A stretch of DNA of 64,000 nucleotides from Escherichia coli (GTDB lineage: Bacteria; Pseudomonadota; Gammaproteobacteria; Enterobacterales; Enterobacteriaceae): the NCBI GenBank assembly GCA_025336685.1, contig GCA_025336685.1_4717.1. One strand, given 5' to 3'. The notes under the pieces are model-generated. The model was not told the DNA's origin. It worked only from the letters and a program-made list of their open reading frames with translations, and made no database searches. This document shows, piece by piece, positions 25,860 to 34,428 of the stretch (position 1 is the stretch's first letter; each line of letters starts with the position of its first letter). The position numbers and the translations under genes were made by a program.

Positions 25860-28418
25860 TTACTGCTCTTCACGTTCCAACAGATACTCGGAAGCGGTAA
25901 TACCGTTTACCGTACGTACCGCTTTCAGACGAGTATCGTCACTCAGAATCACGGTAACAGACTGCAGACCTTTTACTTTGGTCTCGAAGGTCTTGAATAC
26001 CTGATCCAGCATACGAGCAATGCTTGGGTTGGTTGCAGCCGATGCGTGAGTGTAACCGTTCTGGTTCAGCTTCAGAATCTTGGCGTTGGTTGGTACACGA
26101 AGAACAACATGCGGACGCATTGCGAACACACTGTGGTTAAACCAGTAAGCATCGTTACTATCTTCGTCAGTGACGATGTCTGGATTAACACGCATGTCTT
26201 CGGTAGCCGCACCCGCCAAACGACGTTCGATTTCGTCAGCATCCAGAGAGCCGTCCTTCTCCAGTTCTGCACGATACTCACTCATGGCAACCAGATGACG
26301 TTCACGATTCGCTGCAGATTTTTCGTGAGCGGCTTTCAGGTAGTCATGCATGTTGTACAGTTCTGCCATGGAAAGACGAATGTTCCACTGACCTTCGCCG
26401 TCACGATTGCAGTAGAGACACTTCAGCATGTTGACCCAGGTGTAGTAGCAATTGGAGAACTCATCTTCAATGAACTTCTGATCCATTTTAAGATCGTGAA
26501 TCAGCCAACCGGACAGTTCTCCGATATCATCAACGAAGCTAGAAATGGTGGTTTCAGAGAAGTTCTTCGGTACGATACGTTTGATCAGCTTGTTAACGTC
26601 TTTGGTCATGCTATCATTCAGGAAATGCCAGATACGCAGAGGAATGACATCACGATACTGTTGCATGATCTGACGATAAGCTTTGATATCGTCGCTACGA
26701 CCTTTATCAATAGACAACGCGTCCAGGAATTCATGGATAGCATCCAGCTCTTTGTCGGTATAGGTTCCCAGATAGGAATTGACCGTGGCAAGGAATGCTA
26801 ATGCGTCGTTTTGGTTGACGTCGGTGTTGGTCTGCTGAATGATCGCTACTGCAGCTTTGGTTTCAGCATCCTCAACGCTTGACGCTGCGATTGCGTCGGT
26901 AACAGTAAACAGTTTCATTTCGCGCTGTTCGCCGACAACGATCGGTTCGCGTTGAACCGGTTTGTTAAGACTAACGCGAACAACTTCTGCTTGCGCGATA
27001 CGATCCAGTTTTACCATTTCCTGCTCCGCCATACGACGAGCGGTCGGATCTGATTCAAGTTCGATGTATTCCACTTCTTCCTCCGTGAGGGATGTAATGT
27101 CAACAATGGTTTCATGAAGAATTCCGTTTTCGTCGATACGTGCTCGACGAGCGAAGTGTCTGAAGTCATACAACGTTGGCCAGCGACAATTAGGCGCATA
27201 GTCTTTGGCCTTCAGACGCATCTGCATAAATTCTTCATGTTGAACAACACGACCGTAACGCTTAGCATCTTCGGTCGCATCAATTGGATTAACGGTCTTT
27301 GTTACCGTAGCAGAACGAGCCGTACGAATGGGTTCCGGTTTAGTCTGCACTGGTTCAGGTTGAACGGATTTCTGTTGTCCAGCCTTAACATGCCATTCGG
27401 GTTCTTCGTACCGTTCAGCAAATTGCTCGGCTGCTGCAAAGATATCATTGATACCACCAATATCTCCTTCTGGATTCGTCGAATATATCCGTGGTTGCGG
27501 TGCCTCGTAACGCGGCGCTGAGGTAGCAGATGCGTCGTTAACGACAGGATCGTCATCGCCAACATCATACAAACGGTTGAACGCACAATCCTTCGAATCG
27601 ATGTACGATGGAGTTTGTGGTTGGATAACCGTCGGTCGAGGCTGTGCGCCGTATCCCGGCATTGTTGGAGCCATACCACGCATAACTGCTGGGTTAGGTT
27701 GGTATTGTGGTTGTGGGTAGGTTCCGCCATACGTGGGATATGCAGGCTGTTGCGGTTGACCGTACCCACCACCAACCATCGCATTTGCTTGCGGTCCACG
27801 GTAAGTCATCCCCAGTTGCATCACCTGTTGCTTCAGACCGCGGGACTTCTGCGCTATTTGTGCTAGACTCCCACTTTTATTTAGCTGCGTGTACTTATTC
27901 GCGGCTTCCGGGTTAATGCGCGATAATTCAATCGCACGATAATACTCCGGGTATTGATTGGCTTCAAAGAGCCACGTTACAAGGTGATACAGCGCAACTG
28001 TGCTCACAGCAGCAGAGACGATCTGGTCGTTGGACGCATTCTGCGGCATCGGGTTGATGTAAGAGAATACGTTCCAGCAACAGTCTTCAACAAGCGATTC
28101 CATCATCATGTCGTTATTGGTGTAACGTGAGACGAACTCGGTTTGTATTTTATCCTGTTGGGCGAAGTCTTTCAGGACATTGAAGACAGCTTGACGGATT
28201 TTGACGATCGTCGCTTCTTGGGTGATGAAGTTATAGTTCTGCTGATATGATGGTTGCTGGTACTGTGGTGGTTGATAGGTGTTATTCGGGTATGCGCTGT
28301 ACTGCGGTTGCTGGTACTGTTGTTGGCGAACCTGTTCAGCCGCATAATTAATCGTACTCGCATAAGGGTTTTCGTTGTAGCCCATTTGCTGATACATGTT
28401 GTTACTGCCATTATACAT
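25860..28418 (-). CDS. hypothetical protein with two Q/Y/P-rich low-complexity (prion-like) regions
   Basis: 852 aa, ATG with AAGGA RBS; residues 1-65 (QQQYQQPQYSAYPNNTYQPPQYQQPSYQQNY) and about 205-270 (GGGYGQPQQPAYPTYGGTYPQPQYQPNP...). Confidence 0.75.
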   Translation of the reverse strand: MYNGSNNMYQQMGYNENPYASTINYAAEQVRQQQYQQPQYSAYPNNTYQPPQYQQPSYQQNYNFITQEATIVKIRQAVFNVLKDFAQQDKIQTEFVSRYTNNDMMMESLVEDCCWNVFSYINPMPQNASNDQIVSAAVSTVALYHLVTWLFEANQYPEYYRAIELSRINPEAANKYTQLNKSGSLAQIAQKSRGLKQQVMQLGMTYRGPQANAMVGGGYGQPQQPAYPTYGGTYPQPQYQPNPAVMRGMAPTMPGYGAQPRPTVIQPQTPSYIDSKDCAFNRLYDVGDDDPVVNDASATSAPRYEAPQPRIYSTNPEGDIGGINDIFAAAEQFAERYEEPEWHVKAGQQKSVQPEPVQTKPEPIRTARSATVTKTVNPIDATEDAKRYGRVVQHEEFMQMRLKAKDYAPNCRWPTLYDFRHFARRARIDENGILHETIVDITSLTEEEVEYIELESDPTARRMAEQEMVKLDRIAQAEVVRVSLNKPVQREPIVVGEQREMKLFTVTDAIAASSVEDAETKAAVAIIQQTNTDVNQNDALAFLATVNSYLGTYTDKELDAIHEFLDALSIDKGRSDDIKAYRQIMQQYRDVIPLRIWHFLNDSMTKDVNKLIKRIVPKNFSETTISSFVDDIGELSGWLIHDLKMDQKFIEDEFSNCYYTWVNMLKCLYCNRDGEGQWNIRLSMAELYNMHDYLKAAHEKSAANRERHLVAMSEYRAELEKDGSLDADEIERRLAGAATEDMRVNPDIVTDEDSNDAYWFNHSVFAMRPHVVLRVPTNAKILKLNQNGYTHASAATNPSIARMLDQVFKTFETKVKGLQSVTVILSDDTRLKAVRTVNGITASEYLLEREEQ

Positions 28419-28453: not shown

Positions 28454-30250
28454 TCAATCGATTATGTCACGATCGTTAATTTCTACAATTTCTTCATCGA
28501 ATCGACCGACGTCTTTCTTCAAGCCTGCATTTGTTGCTGCAACGTCATTTGCGATTTGTGGGGTAACGATTAACCGACCACGCTCATCGATAGGTGCGTA
28601 CATACTGAACTTCTGACGTCCGGTTGGTTCGGAGTGTGGAAGATTCAGATAGCTTGCACAGAACGGGATGGAACCACTAACCAAACGACTCTCGTCAGCC
28701 AATGCAGCACCGCCTGCGTTTTGGCTCTGGAGAACAACATGCGTGCTCACTTTGAACAGCATGCAATCACCAGGTGACTGAATCGATGTTGCCACTTTCT
28801 CACGTTTATCACGATTGCTCTGGATATTGAGAATCGCTTCCGTTGCAACTTGATTTCGCAACGCCTTCTGTACATCGCGATTGGTCATCTCTTTACGGTT
28901 GTTCTGTCGTTTACCACGTTCCGTGGTTTTAAGATGGAACCCCAGTTTAAAGATGCTTTTACGCACATCCTCCATGACATATTCCAACACCATCAATTCC
29001 TTACCGAACATCGTCGTGGTATCAACACGACTCATTTCGATAGTAACATTGTCAATCAGATACGCCATAAATTCGTAGAAGTCGTCGCAAGGAATATTTT
29101 CCTGTTTGAACTTCTTCTGTTGAATTTCGTCAACGTAAAGATCGAGACTGTCGATGTGGTGGTTTACATCACGCAACAAACGCGCATCCGCATTGTTGTT
29201 ATTAAAGATAATCAAACCGAGTAATGTACGCCAATGGTCTGGCGCATTCGCGAACTCTTCAACCGGATAGTCTTCCGGGAAACGATCGTAATAACGGTCG
29301 ATGAGATATAAGAACGCACCGACAAGGCCAAGAACAATACGTTCCGTACCTCCACGTCTTACAGCGATTTGAATATCAGGATGTTTATAACGTACAGCGT
29401 TAGCGCTACGGCTTTTACCGCTTTTGCTGATACTAAAGCCTTTAGGAATAACCCCCATGGTGCGATAGATTACCCATTGGTCGCGCGGAAAATCACGTTC
29501 AGCAAGGTTCCGTCCGGTTACGGCTTCGACACCTGCAAAACGTCGGAAACATTCACCCACCCCATACTTCGCAAAGAGATAATGACCCAGTGTGGTTACG
29601 CTGGTGTGGTTGATGTTGTCACCGTTCACTTTACTTTGTTTGGTAAGATGATAGATTTGCGACCAGGGTAACGACAGATAATGACGATAATCGATACCCG
29701 TTGGTGTATCATTGCTCAGGAACTGATACGGTGTACGTTTAACCGTGATTTTGTCACGCGGAAGCATGATGAACGCCATGTCTTTCGTGTAACTGATTAC
29801 AGGGTCAGCGAGCACCGCACTGAGAATGAAGTTCGCACCACGTAGACGCATTTTACCACCCTGACCTACTGCGGGCAATAGGAGAGGATGTCGGATAATG
29901 CAGTAGTCCTTTCCCGGCTCACGGCGGTCACCTGATTCCATCGCACCGTACCAGCGGAATTCTAGCATCACCATAAACACGTCGGAAGGTGCAAGGTCGA
30001 AGGTCAGCTTACCGCTATCCTTCCCTTTGGTTTTCTTTCCTCCGCTTAAGTAGTGGAACTGTTCGCGGGCCATACAACGACGTAGGCCATGATACACCAG
30101 ATCCTTAGGTAAACTATCTTTGCTGTTCCGCCAAAGACGATCAACATAGGACTCAACATCTTGCATCTTATCGACGACGATGTTGCGTGCTATCTTCTCG
30201 TTCATCTTCGGTGCAAGCTCAGCGACAGCTTTGCAGAATCTAGGATCCAT
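28454..30250 (-). CDS. hypothetical protein (598 aa)
   Basis: ATG with AGGAG RBS; no motif recognised. Confidence 0.75.
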   Translation of the reverse strand: MDPRFCKAVAELAPKMNEKIARNIVVDKMQDVESYVDRLWRNSKDSLPKDLVYHGLRRCMAREQFHYLSGGKKTKGKDSGKLTFDLAPSDVFMVMLEFRWYGAMESGDRREPGKDYCIIRHPLLLPAVGQGGKMRLRGANFILSAVLADPVISYTKDMAFIMLPRDKITVKRTPYQFLSNDTPTGIDYRHYLSLPWSQIYHLTKQSKVNGDNINHTSVTTLGHYLFAKYGVGECFRRFAGVEAVTGRNLAERDFPRDQWVIYRTMGVIPKGFSISKSGKSRSANAVRYKHPDIQIAVRRGGTERIVLGLVGAFLYLIDRYYDRFPEDYPVEEFANAPDHWRTLLGLIIFNNNNADARLLRDVNHHIDSLDLYVDEIQQKKFKQENIPCDDFYEFMAYLIDNVTIEMSRVDTTTMFGKELMVLEYVMEDVRKSIFKLGFHLKTTERGKRQNNRKEMTNRDVQKALRNQVATEAILNIQSNRDKREKVATSIQSPGDCMLFKVSTHVVLQSQNAGGAALADESRLVSGSIPFCASYLNLPHSEPTGRQKFSMYAPIDERGRLIVTPQIANDVAATNAGLKKDVGRFDEEIVEINDRDIID

Positions 30251-30289: not shown

Positions 30290-31723
30290 TTACTTTTTCG
30301 ATGACGCCTTCTCAAGAATCTTGAAAAAGGTCATACCTATACCGACAACAGCCGCGGTTATACTCGCAGCGGCTTTCCAAACATCGACGTTACGTTGACG
30401 TCGTGCTTCTTCCGCTTCACGTTGTCTTTTTGCCTCTTCATCACGTCGACGTATCTCAGCAGCAAACTCGTCATGCTTACGTTTGGCTTCTTCGTCTCGA
30501 CGACGAAGTTCAGCGACGAATTCTTCATGTTTGCGTTTAGCCTCATCATCACGACGTTTTAAATCAGCTTGATAATCTTCGTGTATTTGTCTACGTAGAT
30601 CATCTTGACGTTTCATTTCGGCTTGGTGTTGTTCCATCCTACGTTTTTGTTCGTCTTTAAGCTGATCGAGTTCGGCTTTATGTTGTTCGTCGCGCAGCTT
30701 TGCGTCGGCGCGATGCGCTTCATGCATCTGTGCGATAACTGCCTTGTGTTCATCCGCCATACGTCGCATTTCAGCCATCACCCCTTTAAGGGTTTCTTCT
30801 GACGACTTACGTTCGTAGCTGCGTTGGTCGAAATCATTTTTGTAGGCTTCTTTTTGGATGGGATCGCGCCAATGCAATGCCGATTCACGCGTCGGAAAAA
30901 CATTGTACTTCCACATCTCTTTTTCCAAATCTTCGACCGGTACGAAGATGGAGTCATTATTCCCGAAGGTAACCAACATACCTGGCGCGCCTGCTCCATT
31001 CGTTGGTTTTATTTCGAACGCTTTCCCCAGCACGTTAACCCATAGGCTATACGGATTATGAAAGTCGGGTGGCGTCCAGTGGATAGTGAGTTGCGTTCCG
31101 AGAATCCGGAAACCCTCTGTCTTTCCTGTTAAACTACGCGCACATGTTGCGATGTAGGGGTGATCAATCCCTTTCGTAACATGGTCTGCGCTTTTGTATT
31201 CTCCTTTAACTTTTACGATTGCCACGTTGATTTGCGCGACATAAATAGGTTGATTAAAGTTCAACGTGTTGAGGTCAATTTGACATATCTCGTCCAGCGT
31301 ATCGTACCAGTCTTGCTGGTCTAATAGACGCGGTATTTTCTCTGTGTTAACGATGCGACGGATATGCGGTTTCCTTATCGCGTAACCTGTACCATTTTTA
31401 ACACGGAGTATATCCCGACGTCTACCCGCGTAGACGAAGTTTCTGAATGCACCATTCGCATTAGATACGTCATGGCTGTCAACTATTACAGGACTACGAA
31501 ATTTTGAACGTCGTACGATCCTGAATGTATTACTGTCCTCAACTCTACCAGGAATGTACTGGAACATATTGTCGGAGGTGATAACCAACACGGTATGGCC
31601 GGATTCATTAATACATGCCCACCCTAATTCCAGGTCATACAACGGTTCAGCATAACCGTCAATGCGATATGCGTACCATCCCCACGGTTCGAACGCGGTA
31701 TCACATATTGGCATGGAGGGCAT
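30290..31723 (-). CDS. tail-anchored membrane protein: N-terminal globular domain, ER/K-rich helix, C-terminal TM segment
   Basis: 477 aa, ATG with GGAGGTG RBS; residues about 330-450 are E/R/K/D/Q/H repeats (EEAKRKHEEF..RRRDEEAKRKHDEF..); C-terminal AAASITAAVVGIGMTFFKIL then KASSKK. Confidence 0.75.
   Translation of the reverse strand: MPSMPICDTAFEPWGWYAYRIDGYAEPLYDLELGWACINESGHTVLVITSDNMFQYIPGRVEDSNTFRIVRRSKFRSPVIVDSHDVSNANGAFRNFVYAGRRRDILRVKNGTGYAIRKPHIRRIVNTEKIPRLLDQQDWYDTLDEICQIDLNTLNFNQPIYVAQINVAIVKVKGEYKSADHVTKGIDHPYIATCARSLTGKTEGFRILGTQLTIHWTPPDFHNPYSLWVNVLGKAFEIKPTNGAGAPGMLVTFGNNDSIFVPVEDLEKEMWKYNVFPTRESALHWRDPIQKEAYKNDFDQRSYERKSSEETLKGVMAEMRRMADEHKAVIAQMHEAHRADAKLRDEQHKAELDQLKDEQKRRMEQHQAEMKRQDDLRRQIHEDYQADLKRRDDEAKRKHEEFVAELRRRDEEAKRKHDEFAAEIRRRDEEAKRQREAEEARRQRNVDVWKAAASITAAVVGIGMTFFKILEKASSKK
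30380..30560 (-). repeat. imperfect tandem repeat of about 54 nt inside 30290..31723
   Basis: Repeated cttacgtttggcttcttcgtctcgacgacgaagttcagcgacgaattcttcatg-type units encoding the RRRDEEAKRKH(E/D)EF(V/A)AE(L/I) repeats. Confidence 0.5.
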
Positions 31724-31931: not shown

Positions 31932-31960
31932 CTCCCCCAACCCTTACGGGCTGAGGGAGG
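31932..31960 (-). terminator. conserved hairpin element, degenerate copy, 3' of major structural gene
   Basis: CTCCCCC-AA-CCC-TTAC-GGG-CTGA-GGGAGG about 95 nt downstream of the stop of 32057..34279. Confidence 0.4.
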
Positions 31961-32056
31961 CTGACTTATGTATCACGGTGCCGGATGAATGTCCGCAATG
32001 AAACCATCCGCAACGTTGTCGTCAAGAATATCATCCAACGAAGCAGCTACGGTAGT

Positions 32057-34279
32057 TCAGTTAGTCTGAACAGGCAGCTTGATGTTTTCGGTGTAGACCT
32101 TACGCAGGTTCACAACGTTAATCAGACCCAGCAGCGGGCAGTTGTTAACGAAGCGGCAGCGAGGCTGAACCATGGTTTCTTTAGAAACCTGACCGTTACG
32201 GGTAACCTGAGCAACAGATACCAGTTCCGGTACGTACAGGAACATACCGAAGGTCAGCGGATCCGGAGAACCCTGGATACCACGAGACAGGGTCACGAAG
32301 ATCTTATCACGCAGCAGAACGTTCGGGTTATCTACAACCACGAAGTTGAAGCTTACACCAACGGTACGGAAATCACCATCGGTCTGCAGGAACTGCGGGA
32401 TGTAGTTGTCAGTTGCTACCACGCAACGCGGTTTCTCATCAGCGTTGGAAGACAGCAGCTGCAGAGCTGGCTGATAACCAGACTCGGAGTACATGCGATA
32501 TGCCATCTCACGAATCACGTTCATGATCGCAGCGGACACTTCAGCACGACGTTCTGCAGTGGTGGTGCCCTGAACAGATTTCGCCAGGTCCAGATTGATT
32601 TCTTCGAACCACGGACGGATCAGGTAACGACCGAAACCTTCGATCTGGATGTCACCGAACTGACGGAAGCGAGAGGTCGCAACCGCTTTCAGTGCATCTT
32701 TGTAGCTGAACAGTTTCTCAACCATCAGGTTGTCGAAACGTGCGTTAGCAGCTTGGATCAGAACGTCCAGGTCAGCAGCGTTTTCTTCCCAATCCAGCGG
32801 ACGAGGAATGGAGAACGGAGCCAGCAGGCCGATTGCATAACGCTCTTGCTTCATGTTGAAGTCAAGGTGTTTACCACGTTCACGACGGTTGCTGTTGTTA
32901 CGGCGAATACGCAGTTCGTAACCAACCAGTTTGAAGCTCAGGTCGTCAGCCAGGTCTTTAAATTCTTGGCTCTTACGCGGCTGTTCGATGTTGTCCTGAT
33001 CAACCAGGCGATACAGTTCAGCGTTAGCACCGTTAACACGCAGACCTGCTTTCTCTACGTTGGAAGAACCGTAAACTTCGATAGCCAGCTGAGCAGCAGA
33101 TTTCGCATCGATGATGTCCTGCAGCGCTTCGGCTTTCGCACCTTTAACGTCAACGGTGTTCTCATCAACGAAGATGGAGTGGGTGTCGAACGCCAGGGTC
33201 ATTTTGCGGAAGTCGCCTTCCAGGGATTTCTGGAAACCGTTGGTAATCAGACCGGATACGTCGAACGGAACGTAAGAGGTCTTGCTGTGCTTGGCTGATT
33301 TGATTTCCACCAGGATTTTGGTCAGCGTGATCTGAGCATCCAGCGCATCGGTGTTGTCGCTGTAACCGTTAGCCAGAATGCTATCGTCTTCAGCGATACC
33401 GATCATGTCGATCAGTTTATCAACAGCCAGGTAAGACGTTTTGTAAGTTACGCCTTTAATCTCGATGTCGCGCGGAGCAACGATAGTTTTGTCAACGAAG
33501 TACTGCGCGTTAGCATCGTCGGCACGATAGATCGGATGCAGATCGGTCACGTCGTTGGACAGAACGTCGTTGTACATGAACGCATCCAGCAGCGGACGAC
33601 GTACCCAATCAGCCGGAGTACCGTCAGCGTTACGACGCAGGTGGTTGAACACCAGCGGACGACGGAAAGATACGTCGTAACCGATCTGGTTCGGAGCCAG
33701 AACGATGGTGTTGTACAGTTCGTTACCCATGCGGCTCAGACGAGAAGCCTTCACGTTGAACACAACGGAGTACGGCATCATGTCACGCAGTTCTTTCTGG
33801 TCGTAGGACAGCTGAACCAGTTCTTCAGATTCGCAACCGCAGGAATCAGCAGCCATCATGACGAAGTTAGAGCTGTCAACTTCACGGCCAGACGGAGTGG
33901 TGCTGATGTTCATGGAACGTGCTTGTTTAGCATATTCTACCGGGTTGCCATGAGCCAGCATGATCAGTGCTGCTGCACGAGCCTGCTGTGCGTTCATGGT
34001 GAACAGCTGTTCTTCAATACGCTGCTTCTCTTCCGGAGTGGTGGTTTCGAAGCCCAGCATGGACAGAACCGGTTCTTCTGCTTTACGGATGTCGCTGCTG
34101 AAGCTCTTAACATCCATATCGTTAACCAGTTTGTCCATGGATTTGAAATCAACCTTAGAAGCAGATTCCATAGACAGGAAGGTGTTCTCCAGACCTTTGT
34201 CTGCTGGTTTGCTACCATTAGCGGTCAGGAACTGGCGAGTGGCCGCGACCTGTTGGCTAAGAAGGGTTTTATCATTCAT
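32057..34279 (-). CDS. major virion structural protein (major capsid protein or tail sheath; capsid favoured)
   Basis: 740 aa, ATG with AAAGGA RBS; strongest codon bias in the window; size typical of jumbo-phage capsid or sheath proteins; identity not verifiable without a search. Confidence 0.8.
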   Translation of the reverse strand: MNDKTLLSQQVAATRQFLTANGSKPADKGLENTFLSMESASKVDFKSMDKLVNDMDVKSFSSDIRKAEEPVLSMLGFETTTPEEKQRIEEQLFTMNAQQARAAALIMLAHGNPVEYAKQARSMNISTTPSGREVDSSNFVMMAADSCGCESEELVQLSYDQKELRDMMPYSVVFNVKASRLSRMGNELYNTIVLAPNQIGYDVSFRRPLVFNHLRRNADGTPADWVRRPLLDAFMYNDVLSNDVTDLHPIYRADDANAQYFVDKTIVAPRDIEIKGVTYKTSYLAVDKLIDMIGIAEDDSILANGYSDNTDALDAQITLTKILVEIKSAKHSKTSYVPFDVSGLITNGFQKSLEGDFRKMTLAFDTHSIFVDENTVDVKGAKAEALQDIIDAKSAAQLAIEVYGSSNVEKAGLRVNGANAELYRLVDQDNIEQPRKSQEFKDLADDLSFKLVGYELRIRRNNSNRRERGKHLDFNMKQERYAIGLLAPFSIPRPLDWEENAADLDVLIQAANARFDNLMVEKLFSYKDALKAVATSRFRQFGDIQIEGFGRYLIRPWFEEINLDLAKSVQGTTTAERRAEVSAAIMNVIREMAYRMYSESGYQPALQLLSSNADEKPRCVVATDNYIPQFLQTDGDFRTVGVSFNFVVVDNPNVLLRDKIFVTLSRGIQGSPDPLTFGMFLYVPELVSVAQVTRNGQVSKETMVQPRCRFVNNCPLLGLINVVNLRKVYTENIKLPVQTN

Positions 34280-34428
34280 TGAAAGTATCCTTTACAGAAT
34301 TAACTTATATAAGTCGGTCGATAGACCATAGCGTACACGCGTGCATGCGCCACTATAGTATCAGTAAACACTTACCGTTATTGAGGTCGTGATACAACAC
34401 TAAAAATGCCGCATAACTTTTCCCTACG

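What the first reader, a model, noticed from the sequence alone, without database searches (positions are those of the whole stretch)
30290..31723. Tail-anchored membrane protein with an ER/K single-helix spacer encoded by a DNA tandem repeat
The 477-aa product has a 330-aa N-terminal domain, then about 120 aa of E/R/K/D/Q/H repeats (EEAKRKHEEFVAELRRRDEEAKRKHDEFAAEIRRRDEEAKRQREAEEARRQR) typical of stable single alpha-helix or coiled-coil spacers, then a C-terminal hydrophobic helix (AAASITAAVVGIGMTFFKIL) and KASSKK. The repeat is also a roughly 54-nt imperfect DNA tandem repeat (about 30380..30560), so spacer length may vary among isolates. The architecture (globular head, rigid rod, C-terminal anchor) is the reverse of i-spanin topology and is not a standard phage module.
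Basis: seen in the sequence. Interest (0 to 1): 0.6.

Follow-up and report, generated by a model that had tools for sequence, protein, structure and literature searches.

The report
Membrane-anchored stalk protein of nucleus-forming phages
This gene is the Goslar-type copy of an uncharacterised core gene found only in nucleus-forming jumbo phages; it encodes a globular head on an unusually long, length-variable charged helix that ends in a probable membrane anchor, which suggests a tether between a membrane and a phage structure, although its function has not been tested.

Summary
The ORF (30290..31723, minus strand, 477 aa) is real. The window is a 97%-identical relative of E. coli jumbo phage Goslar, and the ORF is Goslar gp040. 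This is Chimalliviridae core gene cg35 (PhiKZ gp122, RAY gp001), one of 21 genes unique to nucleus-forming phages and annotated 'hypothetical'.

**Confirmed**
- A beta-rich head (about aa 1-287).
- One continuous charged helix (aa 288-446) with seven 18-residue repeats.
- A 17-residue apolar C-terminal helix flanked by lysines.
- Stalk length varies among relatives (460, 478, 489 and 507 aa) through indels of exactly 18 or 11 residues.

**Not confirmed**
- A DNA tandem repeat. TRF finds none and the units are 22-70% identical at nucleotide level.
- A pure ER/K single helix. The stalk has a hydrophobic seam with a period of about 3.65 residues.
- 'Not a standard phage module'. Head, helix and C-terminal hydrophobic helix recur in all 18 chimallivirus loci examined, always between the major capsid gene and a non-virion RNA polymerase subunit gene.

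The protein is absent from Goslar virion mass spectrometry. The PhiPA3 ortholog was weakly detected near the nuclear shell.

My best reading (about 0.45) is a tail-anchored, cytoplasm-facing tether. The C-terminal helix is only amphipathic in PhiKZ and PhiPA3, so membrane insertion remains unproven.

The parts
30290..31723 (-). CDS, 477 aa. Ortholog of Goslar gp040, PhiKZ gp122 and Chimalliviridae core gene cg35.
   Evidence: ORF list. 98.3% aa identity to Goslar gp040. cg35 assignment from Prichard 2023 Table S3. PHROG 7727 match, E 2e-5.
30863..31723 (-). N-terminal globular, mostly beta domain (aa 1-287). It has no Pfam or PDB relative. Motifs HPY, LWxNVxGxA, PG and FPTxExA are shared with the family.
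30386..30862 (-). Continuous charged alpha-helical stalk (aa 288-446), about 24 nm long if fully helical.
   Evidence: AF2 helix 288-474, pLDDT about 90. Composition, salt-bridge counts and periodicity.
30791..30823 (-). RSYERKSSEET motif (aa 301-311). It resembles the EERSxxRKDSSE motif that directly precedes the C-terminal helix in other family members.
   Evidence: Family alignment and tail sequences. The homology of the motif is my inference.
30389..30766 (-). Seven 18-residue (54-nt) repeat units (aa 320-445). The last three are the clearest (RRRDEEAKRKH-EF-AE).
   Evidence: Lag-18 self-identity 0.35; unit table with 0-14/18 aa and 22-70% nt identity.
30617..30688 (-). Pair of 18-nt direct repeats spaced 54 nt apart (30617-30634 and 30671-30688). 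They flank the 54-nt segment that is missing in the 460-aa relatives.
   Evidence: the repeat finder family D1. DNA alignment of window, Goslar, L019 and L021.
30314..30379 (-). C-terminal hydrophobic helix WK-AAASITAAVVGIGMTFF-KIL (aa 449-470), the putative tail anchor.
   Evidence: Kyte-Doolittle maximum 1.76. Crude Hessa sum +2.8 kcal/mol. The K-x17-K layout is conserved in P0015 and P0016.
30293..30313 (-). Short basic C-terminal tail EKASSKK (aa 471-477).
   Evidence: Translation. Invariant among close relatives.
31932..31960 (-). GC-rich hairpin followed by a U-rich tract, downstream of the major capsid gene and upstream of this CDS. It is probably a terminator or transcript-end structure that separates the two genes.
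   Evidence: RNA fold -28.6 kcal/mol, z -5.1. Conserved in Goslar. The simple terminator scan did not call it.
28454..30250 (-). Downstream gene for a non-virion RNA polymerase beta-type subunit (PhiKZ gp123 ortholog, cg36). It starts 39 nt after the stop of this CDS.
   Evidence: PHROG 2943, E 5e-120. tblastn to 249 phage records. The gap is 4-47 nt in 17 of the 18 loci as annotated; SPLA3's annotated start is 216 nt away, about 29 nt by the tblastn match.
32057..34279 (-). Upstream gene for the PhiKZ-type major capsid protein.
   Evidence: Pfam PF25620, E 1.6e-217.

Best explanation
The ORF is the Goslar-clade ortholog of Chimalliviridae core gene cg35 (PhiKZ gp122, PhiPA3 gene 138, RAY gp001).

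**Proposed mechanism**
- It is a non-virion protein made inside the infected cell, probably from the same transcript as the adjacent non-virion RNA polymerase subunit gene, which is an early gene.
- It has no signal peptide. Its only hydrophobic segment is the last helix: 17 apolar residues bracketed by lysines, 7 residues from the end.
- It would therefore insert post-translationally as a tail-anchored protein into the inner membrane, or into a membrane derived from it such as the early-infection (EPI) vesicle.
- The beta-rich head (aa 1-287) would then sit in the cytoplasm on a stiff, salt-bridged helical stalk of about 24 nm.
- I propose the head binds a phage assembly, most likely the nuclear shell (ChmA/ChmB) or a structure docked on it. 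The protein would then act as a spacer-tether that fixes the distance between membrane and partner.

**Stalk evolution**
- In the Goslar clade the stalk has been expanded by 18-residue (5-turn) units.
- Relatives differ by 18- or 11-residue indels (5 or 3 turns). These change length but keep the rotational phase between head and anchor.

**Shown versus inferred**
- Shown: identity, synteny, architecture, length polymorphism, absence from virions.
- Inferred: membrane insertion, co-transcription, binding partner, tether function.
For: **Identity**
- 97.2% nt identity to Goslar over 5.9 kb.
- Goslar gp040 = cg35 = PhiKZ gp122 = RAY gp001*, unique to chimallin-encoding phages.
- PHROG families 7727, 7286 and 15024 link the orthologs. 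Foldseek recovers only cg35 orthologs, E down to 8e-11.

**Synteny**
- The order capsid gene, cg35, nvRNAP subunit gene, gp124-like gene holds in 18 of 18 loci. The gap to the RNA polymerase gene is 4-47 nt in 17 of the 18 as annotated (SPLA3: 216 nt annotated, about 29 nt by the tblastn match).
- A strong hairpin follows the capsid gene.

**Anchor**
- The most hydrophobic 19-mer lies within 10 residues of the C-terminus in 16 of 18 orthologs. Kyte-Doolittle exceeds 1.6 in 9 of 18, including the window at 1.76.
- The K-x17-K layout is kept in the 31%-identical relatives P0015 and P0016.
- No other hydrophobic segment is present.

**Stalk**
- Single helix over aa 288-474, pLDDT about 90.
- 76 opposite-charge i+3/i+4 pairs against 9 like-charge pairs.
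- Indels of exactly 18, 11 and 18 aa among relatives.

**Not a virion protein**
- gp040 is absent from a Goslar virion MS table that lists even trace nvRNAP gp039.
- There is no PDB sequence match.

**Partner hint**
- The PhiPA3 ortholog appears in the ChmA-miniTurboID list and in the GFP-ChmA and GFP-ChmB pulldowns.
- PhiKZ122 antisense knockdown gives a reproducible plaque phenotype and a strong effect on phage transcription at 30 min.
Against: - The anchor is only marginally hydrophobic. The crude position-independent Hessa sum is +2.8 kcal/mol, and the segment is rich in Ala, Gly, Ser and Thr.
- In PhiKZ, PhiPA3, Vibrio, Centimanus, Haymo and Aeromonas D6 orthologs the C-terminal helix contains internal D/E/K. 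It looks amphipathic rather than membrane-spanning. The feature conserved across the family may therefore be a peripheral membrane-binding or protein-binding helix.
- The lysine-rich tail EKASSKK would have to cross the bilayer.
- The ChmA evidence is weak: one peptide and one spectrum in the pulldown, and a broad proximity list that also holds capsid proteins.
- The PhiKZ122 knockdown phenotype could be a polar effect on gp123, whose start lies about 10 nt downstream.
- No localisation data exist for any ortholog in the literature I could search.
Confidence: 0.45

Rival explanations
1. **Shell-associated factor, not a membrane protein.** The C-terminal hydrophobic or amphipathic helix docks into the ChmA/ChmB protein lattice, or bundles with copies of itself. 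The stalk projects the head away from the nuclear shell, for example toward capsids, ribosomes or filaments.
For: - The PhiPA3 ortholog appears in ChmA proximity labelling and in the ChmA and ChmB pulldowns.
- In PhiKZ and PhiPA3 the C-terminal helix carries internal charges and is amphipathic (muH 0.40-0.46), which suits a protein interface better than a bilayer.
- The gene is unique to shell-building phages.
Against: - In the Goslar clade and about half of the family, the helix is a 17-residue apolar stretch flanked by lysines with Kyte-Doolittle above 1.6. This is the classical signature of a membrane span.
- The pulldown evidence rests on a single peptide.
- No such protein has been modelled in the shell, as far as the reviews I searched say.
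Confidence: 0.25
2. **Procapsid assembly or release factor.** The protein is anchored at the inner membrane, where chimallivirus capsids are reported to assemble. The head binds portal or capsid protein. The prohead protease cuts at the S-x-E-like RKSSEE motif and releases the particle.
For: - The gene sits next to the major capsid gene in every genome.
- Capsids assemble on the membrane in the Pseudomonas phages (PMC10299810 introduction).
- ChmB pulls down portal and capsid proteins together with the PhiPA3 ortholog.
- A conserved RKDSSE motif sits just before the anchor in many orthologs.
- From my own knowledge, PhiKZ-type prohead proteases cut after S/A/G-x-E.
Against: - The gene is tightly coupled to an early RNA polymerase gene and is separated from the capsid gene by a strong hairpin and more than 300 nt.
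- It is absent from the virion MS.
- Jumbo phages that share the capsid and RNA polymerase genes but lack chimallin also lack this gene.
- In the window protein the motif lies before the stalk, not next to the anchor.
Confidence: 0.15
3. **Lysis-related membrane protein** (holin, antiholin or spanin-like), or another envelope effector.
For: It has a single hydrophobic helix next to a coiled-coil-like region, as in spanins.
Against: - The orientation is the wrong way round for an i-spanin, and there is no partner lipoprotein gene nearby.
- The gene lies in a replication and structural core block, not a lysis cassette.
- The PCH45 lysis genes are elsewhere, at gp54 and gp152.
- The large cytoplasmic head is atypical.
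Confidence: 0.03

Closest known systems
Chimalliviridae core gene cg35 family (PhiKZ gp122, PhiPA3 gene 138, 201phi2-1 gp202, RAY gp001, Goslar gp040; PHROGs 7727, 7286 and 15024)
   Same: - Same genomic slot.
- Same head motifs.
- Same layout of head, helix and C-terminal hydrophobic helix.
- The window protein is 98% identical to Goslar gp040.
   Different: - The Goslar clade carries a stalk about 80-130 residues longer than in other members. The region after the head is 159-206 aa, against 57-111 aa elsewhere.
- The extra length is built from 18-residue repeats.
- The Goslar-clade anchor is among the most membrane-like in the family.
Eukaryotic tail-anchored tethers such as VAP proteins (beta-sandwich MSP head, coiled coil, C-terminal membrane helix). 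This is an analogy only.
   Same: - Same order of parts.
- The head faces the cytosol.
- VAPs tether other organelles to a membrane (PMC9213790).
   Different: - There is no sequence or demonstrated fold relationship.
- Bacteria have different insertion machinery.
- The partner here is unknown.
E. coli tail-anchored inner-membrane proteins ElaB, YqjD and YgaM (from my own knowledge, not tested here)
   Same: A helical cytoplasmic part followed by a Gly/Ala-rich C-terminal membrane helix and a short basic tail.
   Different: - They are about 100 aa and have no globular head.
- There is no homology; Pfam gives no DUF883 hit.
ER/K single alpha-helix (SAH) spacers
   Same: Very high density of opposite-charge i+3/i+4 pairs (76 against 9) and a long uninterrupted helix.
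   Different: - Only 56% charged.
- 15% strongly hydrophobic residues, aligned in a seam with period of about 3.65. This points to helix-helix packing.
i-spanin (Rz-type)
   Same: One membrane helix plus a long charged helical region.
   Different: - The anchor is at the opposite end.
- The bulk of the protein is cytoplasmic rather than periplasmic.
- There is no o-spanin partner, and the gene is not in a lysis cassette.

Membership tests
Chimalliviridae cg35 / PhiKZ gp122 family | The gene lies between the PhiKZ-type major capsid gene and the nvRNAP beta-type subunit gene. | tested here: met
   Window layout. Same order in 18 of 18 loci.
Chimalliviridae cg35 / PhiKZ gp122 family | Sequence or profile similarity of the head domain to family members. 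| tested here: met
   PHROG 7727, E 2e-5. Orthologs bridge PHROGs 7727, 7286 and 15024. Foldseek E 8e-11 to 1e-4 against orthologs only. Listed as cg35 in Prichard 2023.
Chimalliviridae cg35 / PhiKZ gp122 family | A charged helix followed by a hydrophobic or amphipathic helix at the extreme C-terminus. | tested here: met
   The hydrophobic maximum is within 10 residues of the end in 16 of 18 orthologs.
Tail-anchored membrane protein | A single hydrophobic segment within about 30 residues of the C-terminus, with no signal peptide and no other membrane segment. | tested here: met
   All of the top Kyte-Doolittle windows lie at aa 446-473. The N-terminus is polar.
Tail-anchored membrane protein | The segment is long and hydrophobic enough to span a bilayer. 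| tested here: inconclusive
   17 apolar residues between K450 and K468. Kyte-Doolittle 1.76, above the classical 1.6 threshold. Crude Hessa sum +2.8 kcal/mol. No dedicated predictor was available.
Tail-anchored membrane protein | The protein is integral to a membrane with the N-terminus in the cytoplasm. | not testable with these tools
   Needs fractionation or microscopy.
ER/K single alpha-helix domain | Almost exclusively E/K/R(/Q), with no hydrophobic seam. | tested here: not met
   56% D/E/K/R, 15% V/I/L/M/F/W/Y. The hydrophobicity spectrum peaks at 3.64-3.68 residues.
Canonical heptad coiled coil | Hydrophobic periodicity of 3.5 residues. | tested here: not met
   For aa 288-446, power at 3.50 is 8.8 against 40.7 at 3.66. 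The repeat is 18 residues and indels are 11 or 18 residues.
DNA tandem repeat (length-variable by slippage) | Head-to-tail nucleotide copies at or above about 70% identity, detectable by TRF. | tested here: not met
   TRF gives 0 rows at score 30. Unit identity is 22-70%, and synonymous codons differ.
i-spanin | An N-terminal membrane helix, a periplasmic coiled coil and an adjacent or embedded o-spanin gene. | tested here: not met
   The anchor is C-terminal. The neighbours are capsid and RNA polymerase genes.

The most novel reading that the evidence does not exclude
cg35 is the phage-made membrane receptor that links the lipid-bounded early-infection (EPI) vesicle, or the inner membrane, to the nascent ChmA shell. 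It would nucleate or position the phage nucleus next to the vesicle so that the genome can be handed over. This would make it the first tail-anchored organelle tether described for a bacterial virus, with stalk length setting the gap between the two compartments.
Probability: 0.12. Interest if true: 0.85.

Novelty: new variant of a known kind. Interest (0 to 1): 0.52.

Why it matters
**Open question.** Nucleus-forming phages make two successive compartments, a lipid vesicle and a protein shell. Reviews up to 2025-2026 state that vesicle formation and the transfer of the genome from the vesicle to the shell are not understood. In those I searched I found no phage-encoded membrane protein described.

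**What this gene offers.**
- It is a core gene unique to this phage family.
- It appears to be co-expressed with an early RNA polymerase subunit.
- It is absent from virions.
- It was weakly detected near the shell.
- It is built like a tail-anchored tether.

This makes it a concrete candidate that can be tested in the tractable E. coli/Goslar system. The natural length variants (460 to 507 aa, in whole helical turns) are ready-made reagents for a ruler experiment.

**If it is not membrane-inserted.** The conserved C-terminal helix would still be a defined handle for finding what this essential-looking core protein binds.

Tried and rejected
- **DNA tandem repeat.** TRF and the repeat finder do not support a DNA tandem repeat. 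I rejected a slippage-prone VNTR reading.
- **Sequence family searches.** Pfam, NCBI-style family and PDB sequence searches on the protein and on a 20-member family alignment gave nothing.
- **Large protein searches.**
  - The first search found only relatives at 89% identity or above.
  - The 1.8-billion-representative scan added just two 31%-identical proteins.
  - The two profile searches were swamped or limited by the word index and added few sequences.
- **AlphaFold2.**
  - The accepted 14-sequence job gave pLDDT 52.
- **Promoters.** The sigma-70 scan found nothing relevant, and a candidate upstream motif is not repeated in the window. Expression class is therefore inferred from gene spacing only.
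- **Expression and essentiality tables.** The Goslar RNA-seq and PCH45 Tn-seq supplementary tables are not held in the library.
- **Literature.** 'gp122' hits in two papers concern other phages' gene numbering. A mention in the SPN3US paper was also unrelated.
- **Tool quirk.** The tools display the string for PhiPA3 gene 138 as 'xxxxx'. I identified it by the search term and by accession YP_009217217.
Full report
**What the window is**

A 5.9-kb stretch around the finding is 97.2% identical to Escherichia phage vB_EcoM_Goslar, a nucleus-forming jumbo phage. In the Goslar record the ORF corresponds to HOV27_gp040, a 478-aa 'hypothetical protein'. It is 98.3% identical at protein level.

The upstream neighbour (32057..34279, minus strand) is the PhiKZ-type major capsid protein (Pfam PF25620, E 1.6e-217). 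The downstream neighbour (28454..30250, minus strand) matches PHROG 2943 'polymerase' (E 5e-120). It is the ortholog of PhiKZ gp123, a non-virion RNA polymerase (nvRNAP) subunit.

**Check of the observation**

- *Helix.* AlphaFold2 predicts one uninterrupted helix from residue 288 to 474, with pLDDT near 90 over most of it. The globular part therefore ends near residue 287, not 330.
- *Repeats.* The charged part has a sharp 18-residue periodicity. Self-identity is 0.35 at lag 18 and 0.24 at lag 36, against about 0.1 at other lags. Seven units can be laid out from aa 320 to 445 (window 30389..30766).
- *Hydrophobic helix.* The most hydrophobic 19-residue window of the protein is aa 452-470 (Kyte-Doolittle 1.76). 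All of the top windows lie at the C-terminus, and nothing resembling a signal peptide is present.
- *DNA tandem repeat.* This does not hold up.
  - Tandem Repeats Finder returns nothing at minimum score 30.
  - The repeat finder returns only one 18-nt pair spaced 54 nt apart.
  - The 54-nt units are 22-70% identical.
  - Even in the best pair (14 of 18 identical residues), only 4 of those 14 residues use the same codon.
  - The repeat is therefore old and kept by selection on the protein.

**Length variation**

A search of 5.8 billion proteins found only close relatives (89% identity or above), with lengths of 460, 478, 489 and 507 aa.

In the alignment all length differences fall in the helix. 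They are exactly 18, 11 and 18 residues.

At DNA level the 460-aa form (locus L019) lacks exactly 54 nt. The junction lies in the repeated GAACAACA-y-M-AAGCCGAA, which is the very pair that the repeat finder reported. The 507-aa form (L021) has insertions of 33 and 54 nt.

Hydrophobicity in the stalk peaks at a period of 3.64-3.68 residues, not 3.5. Indels of 11 and 18 residues therefore add three or five whole turns. They change length while keeping the rotational register between head and C-terminal helix.

Between the window and L021 the stalk is 81% identical at nucleotide level, while the head is 95% identical.

**Nature of the stalk**

| Property (aa 320-446) | Value |
|---|---|
| D/E/K/R content | 56% |
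| V/I/L/M/F/W/Y content | 15% |
| Opposite-charge i+3/i+4 pairs | 76 |
| Like-charge i+3/i+4 pairs | 9 |

The salt-bridge density resembles an ER/K single helix. The aligned hydrophobic seam (A7, H11, F14, V/A15 and L/I18 of each unit) does not fit a pure SAH, and it does not fit a heptad coiled coil either. I read it as a non-heptad (hendecad or 18-residue type) helix that may pair with itself or with a partner. Oligomeric state could not be tested.

**What the gene is**

Supplementary Table S3 of Prichard et al. 2023 lists cg35 = Goslar gp040 = PhiKZ gp122 = RAY gp001*, annotated 'hypothetical'. [quoted passage not shown]

I verified this independently.

- In PhiKZ, Eowyn, PCH45 and 14 further diverse chimalliviruses, the gene between the capsid gene and the nvRNAP subunit gene encodes a 311-392 aa protein.
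- These proteins connect through PHROGs 7727, 7286 and 15024.
- They share head motifs.
- Foldseek with my head model hits only these orthologs (E 8e-11 to 1e-4).

The exhaustive scan of 1.8 billion representatives added only two 31%-identical relatives with the same layout. No Pfam family and no PDB sequence matches the protein.

**Architecture across the family**

Every ortholog ends in a hydrophobic or amphipathic helix preceded by a charged helix. The hydrophobic maximum lies within 10 residues of the C-terminus in 16 of 18 proteins, which cannot be chance.

The character of that helix differs between lineages.

| Group | C-terminal helix |
|---|---|
| Goslar clade, P0015, P0016, Burkholderia FLC9, PhiEaH1, EarlPhillipIV, SPLA3 | 17 apolar, Gly/Ala-rich residues following a Lys (K-x17; a second Lys closes the stretch in all but EarlPhillipIV and SPLA3, where the protein ends) |
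| All 18 orthologs | Kyte-Doolittle above 1.6 in 9 of 18 |
| PhiKZ, PhiPA3, Vibrio, Centimanus, Haymo, Aeromonas D6 | Internal D/E/K; amphipathic |

The region after the head is 57-111 residues in other lineages but 159-206 in the Goslar clade. The long 18-residue-repeat stalk is therefore a clade-specific expansion.

A motif EERSxxRKDSSExxK directly precedes the C-terminal helix in many orthologs. In the window a similar RSYERKSSEETLK lies at aa 301-313, before the repeats. This suggests the repeats were inserted between motif and anchor (inference).

**Context and published data**

- *Gene spacing.* The stop of cg35 lies 4-47 nt from the start of the nvRNAP subunit gene in 17 of the 18 loci as annotated; in SPLA3 the annotated start is 216 nt away, about 29 nt by the tblastn match. 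The capsid gene, by contrast, is followed by more than 300 nt containing a strong hairpin (-28.6 kcal/mol, z -5.1). One annotated genome marks a terminator there.
- *Expression class.* nvRNAP subunits are early gene products (PMC10612078). cg35 is therefore probably early as well, but this is inferred. I could not retrieve expression tables.
- *Virion content.* Goslar virion mass spectrometry lists portal gp036, gp038 (26 peptides), gp042 and even trace nvRNAP gp039 (3 peptides), but not gp040.
- *Shell proximity.* In PhiPA3, the ortholog (gene 138, YP_009217217) was reported in GFP-ChmA and GFP-ChmB pulldowns and in ChmA miniTurboID labelling, with 'no annotated or predicted function' (PMC10643120). 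The ChmA pulldown rests on one peptide.
- *Knockdown.* In PhiKZ, two antisense oligomers against gene 122 each gave a '+' phenotype. Knockdown was among those with strong effects on phage transcription at 30 min (PMC12571901). A polar effect on gp123 cannot be excluded.
- *Essentiality.* In PCH45 Tn-seq, 18 of 22 homologs of the chimallin-specific core were essential. The four exceptions named are other genes. The cg35 entry itself could not be checked.
- *Reviews.* Reviews to 2025-2026 discuss no phage membrane protein. They list vesicle formation and genome hand-over as open questions.

**Interpretation**

The best-supported reading is a tail-anchored, cytoplasm-facing tether. The C-terminal helix would sit in a lipid membrane. 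A stiff stalk of about 24 nm would act as a spacer. The beta-rich head would bind a phage assembly, most likely the nuclear shell. I put this at about 0.45.

| Rival | Confidence |
|---|---|
| The C-terminal helix binds the protein shell rather than lipid | 0.25 |
| A membrane-based procapsid assembly or release factor | 0.15 |
| A lysis function | 0.03 |

- *Known:* the gene family.
- *Apparently undescribed:* its architecture, and the Goslar-clade stalk expansion with whole-turn length polymorphism.
- *Ordinary:* that the ORF exists and is conserved.
- *Interesting:* what the architecture implies for an unsolved step of the chimallivirus life cycle.

Noticed in passing
window 25860..28418 (-): The 852-aa product (Goslar gp038, PhiKZ gp124 slot) starts with a Q/Y/P/N-rich low-complexity region and has a second such region around aa 200-330. 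Goslar gp038 is detected in virions with 26 peptides (about 17-39 copies estimated) but is not placed in the virion model. PhiKZ124 knockdown also perturbs phage transcription.
   Followed up: partly
window 31932..31960 (-): An 11-bp GC-rich hairpin with a GUAA loop (-28.6 kcal/mol, z -5.1), followed by AUUUAUGCCGUUUAU, sits just after the major capsid gene. The simple terminator scan missed it. It is conserved in Goslar.
   Followed up: yes
window 30791..30823 (-); orthologs in L004, L005, L006, L009, L013, L015: A conserved EERSxxRKDSSE motif precedes the C-terminal helix across the family. It contains an S-x-E pattern like the cleavage sites of PhiKZ-type prohead proteases (from my own knowledge). 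In the window it sits before the repeats instead.
   Followed up: partly
L021:3001-4524 compared with window 30290..31723: The gene is mosaic. The head is 95% identical at nucleotide level but the stalk only 81%, so the stalk evolves faster or has been exchanged by recombination.
   Followed up: partly
proteins P0007, P0009, P0012-P0014: Goslar-like gp040 homologs sit on contigs of up to 244 kb that are labelled as Salmonella enterica or E. coli O157 isolate assemblies. Goslar-type jumbo phages therefore seem to travel with sequenced bacterial isolates, as a carrier state or as contamination.
   Followed up: no
window 31985..33298 (+) and 33536..34282 (+): Long ORFs of 437 and 248 aa run antisense to the major capsid gene. 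They are most likely non-coding by-products of its codon usage.
   Followed up: no
L002:4494-4946, L012:947-1480, L015:663-1361: Some lineages (PhiKZ gp121, PhiPA3 gene 137, SPLA3) carry an extra small gene between the capsid gene and cg35. Goslar and the window do not. PhiPA3 gene 137 is also in the ChmA proximity-labelling list.
   Followed up: no
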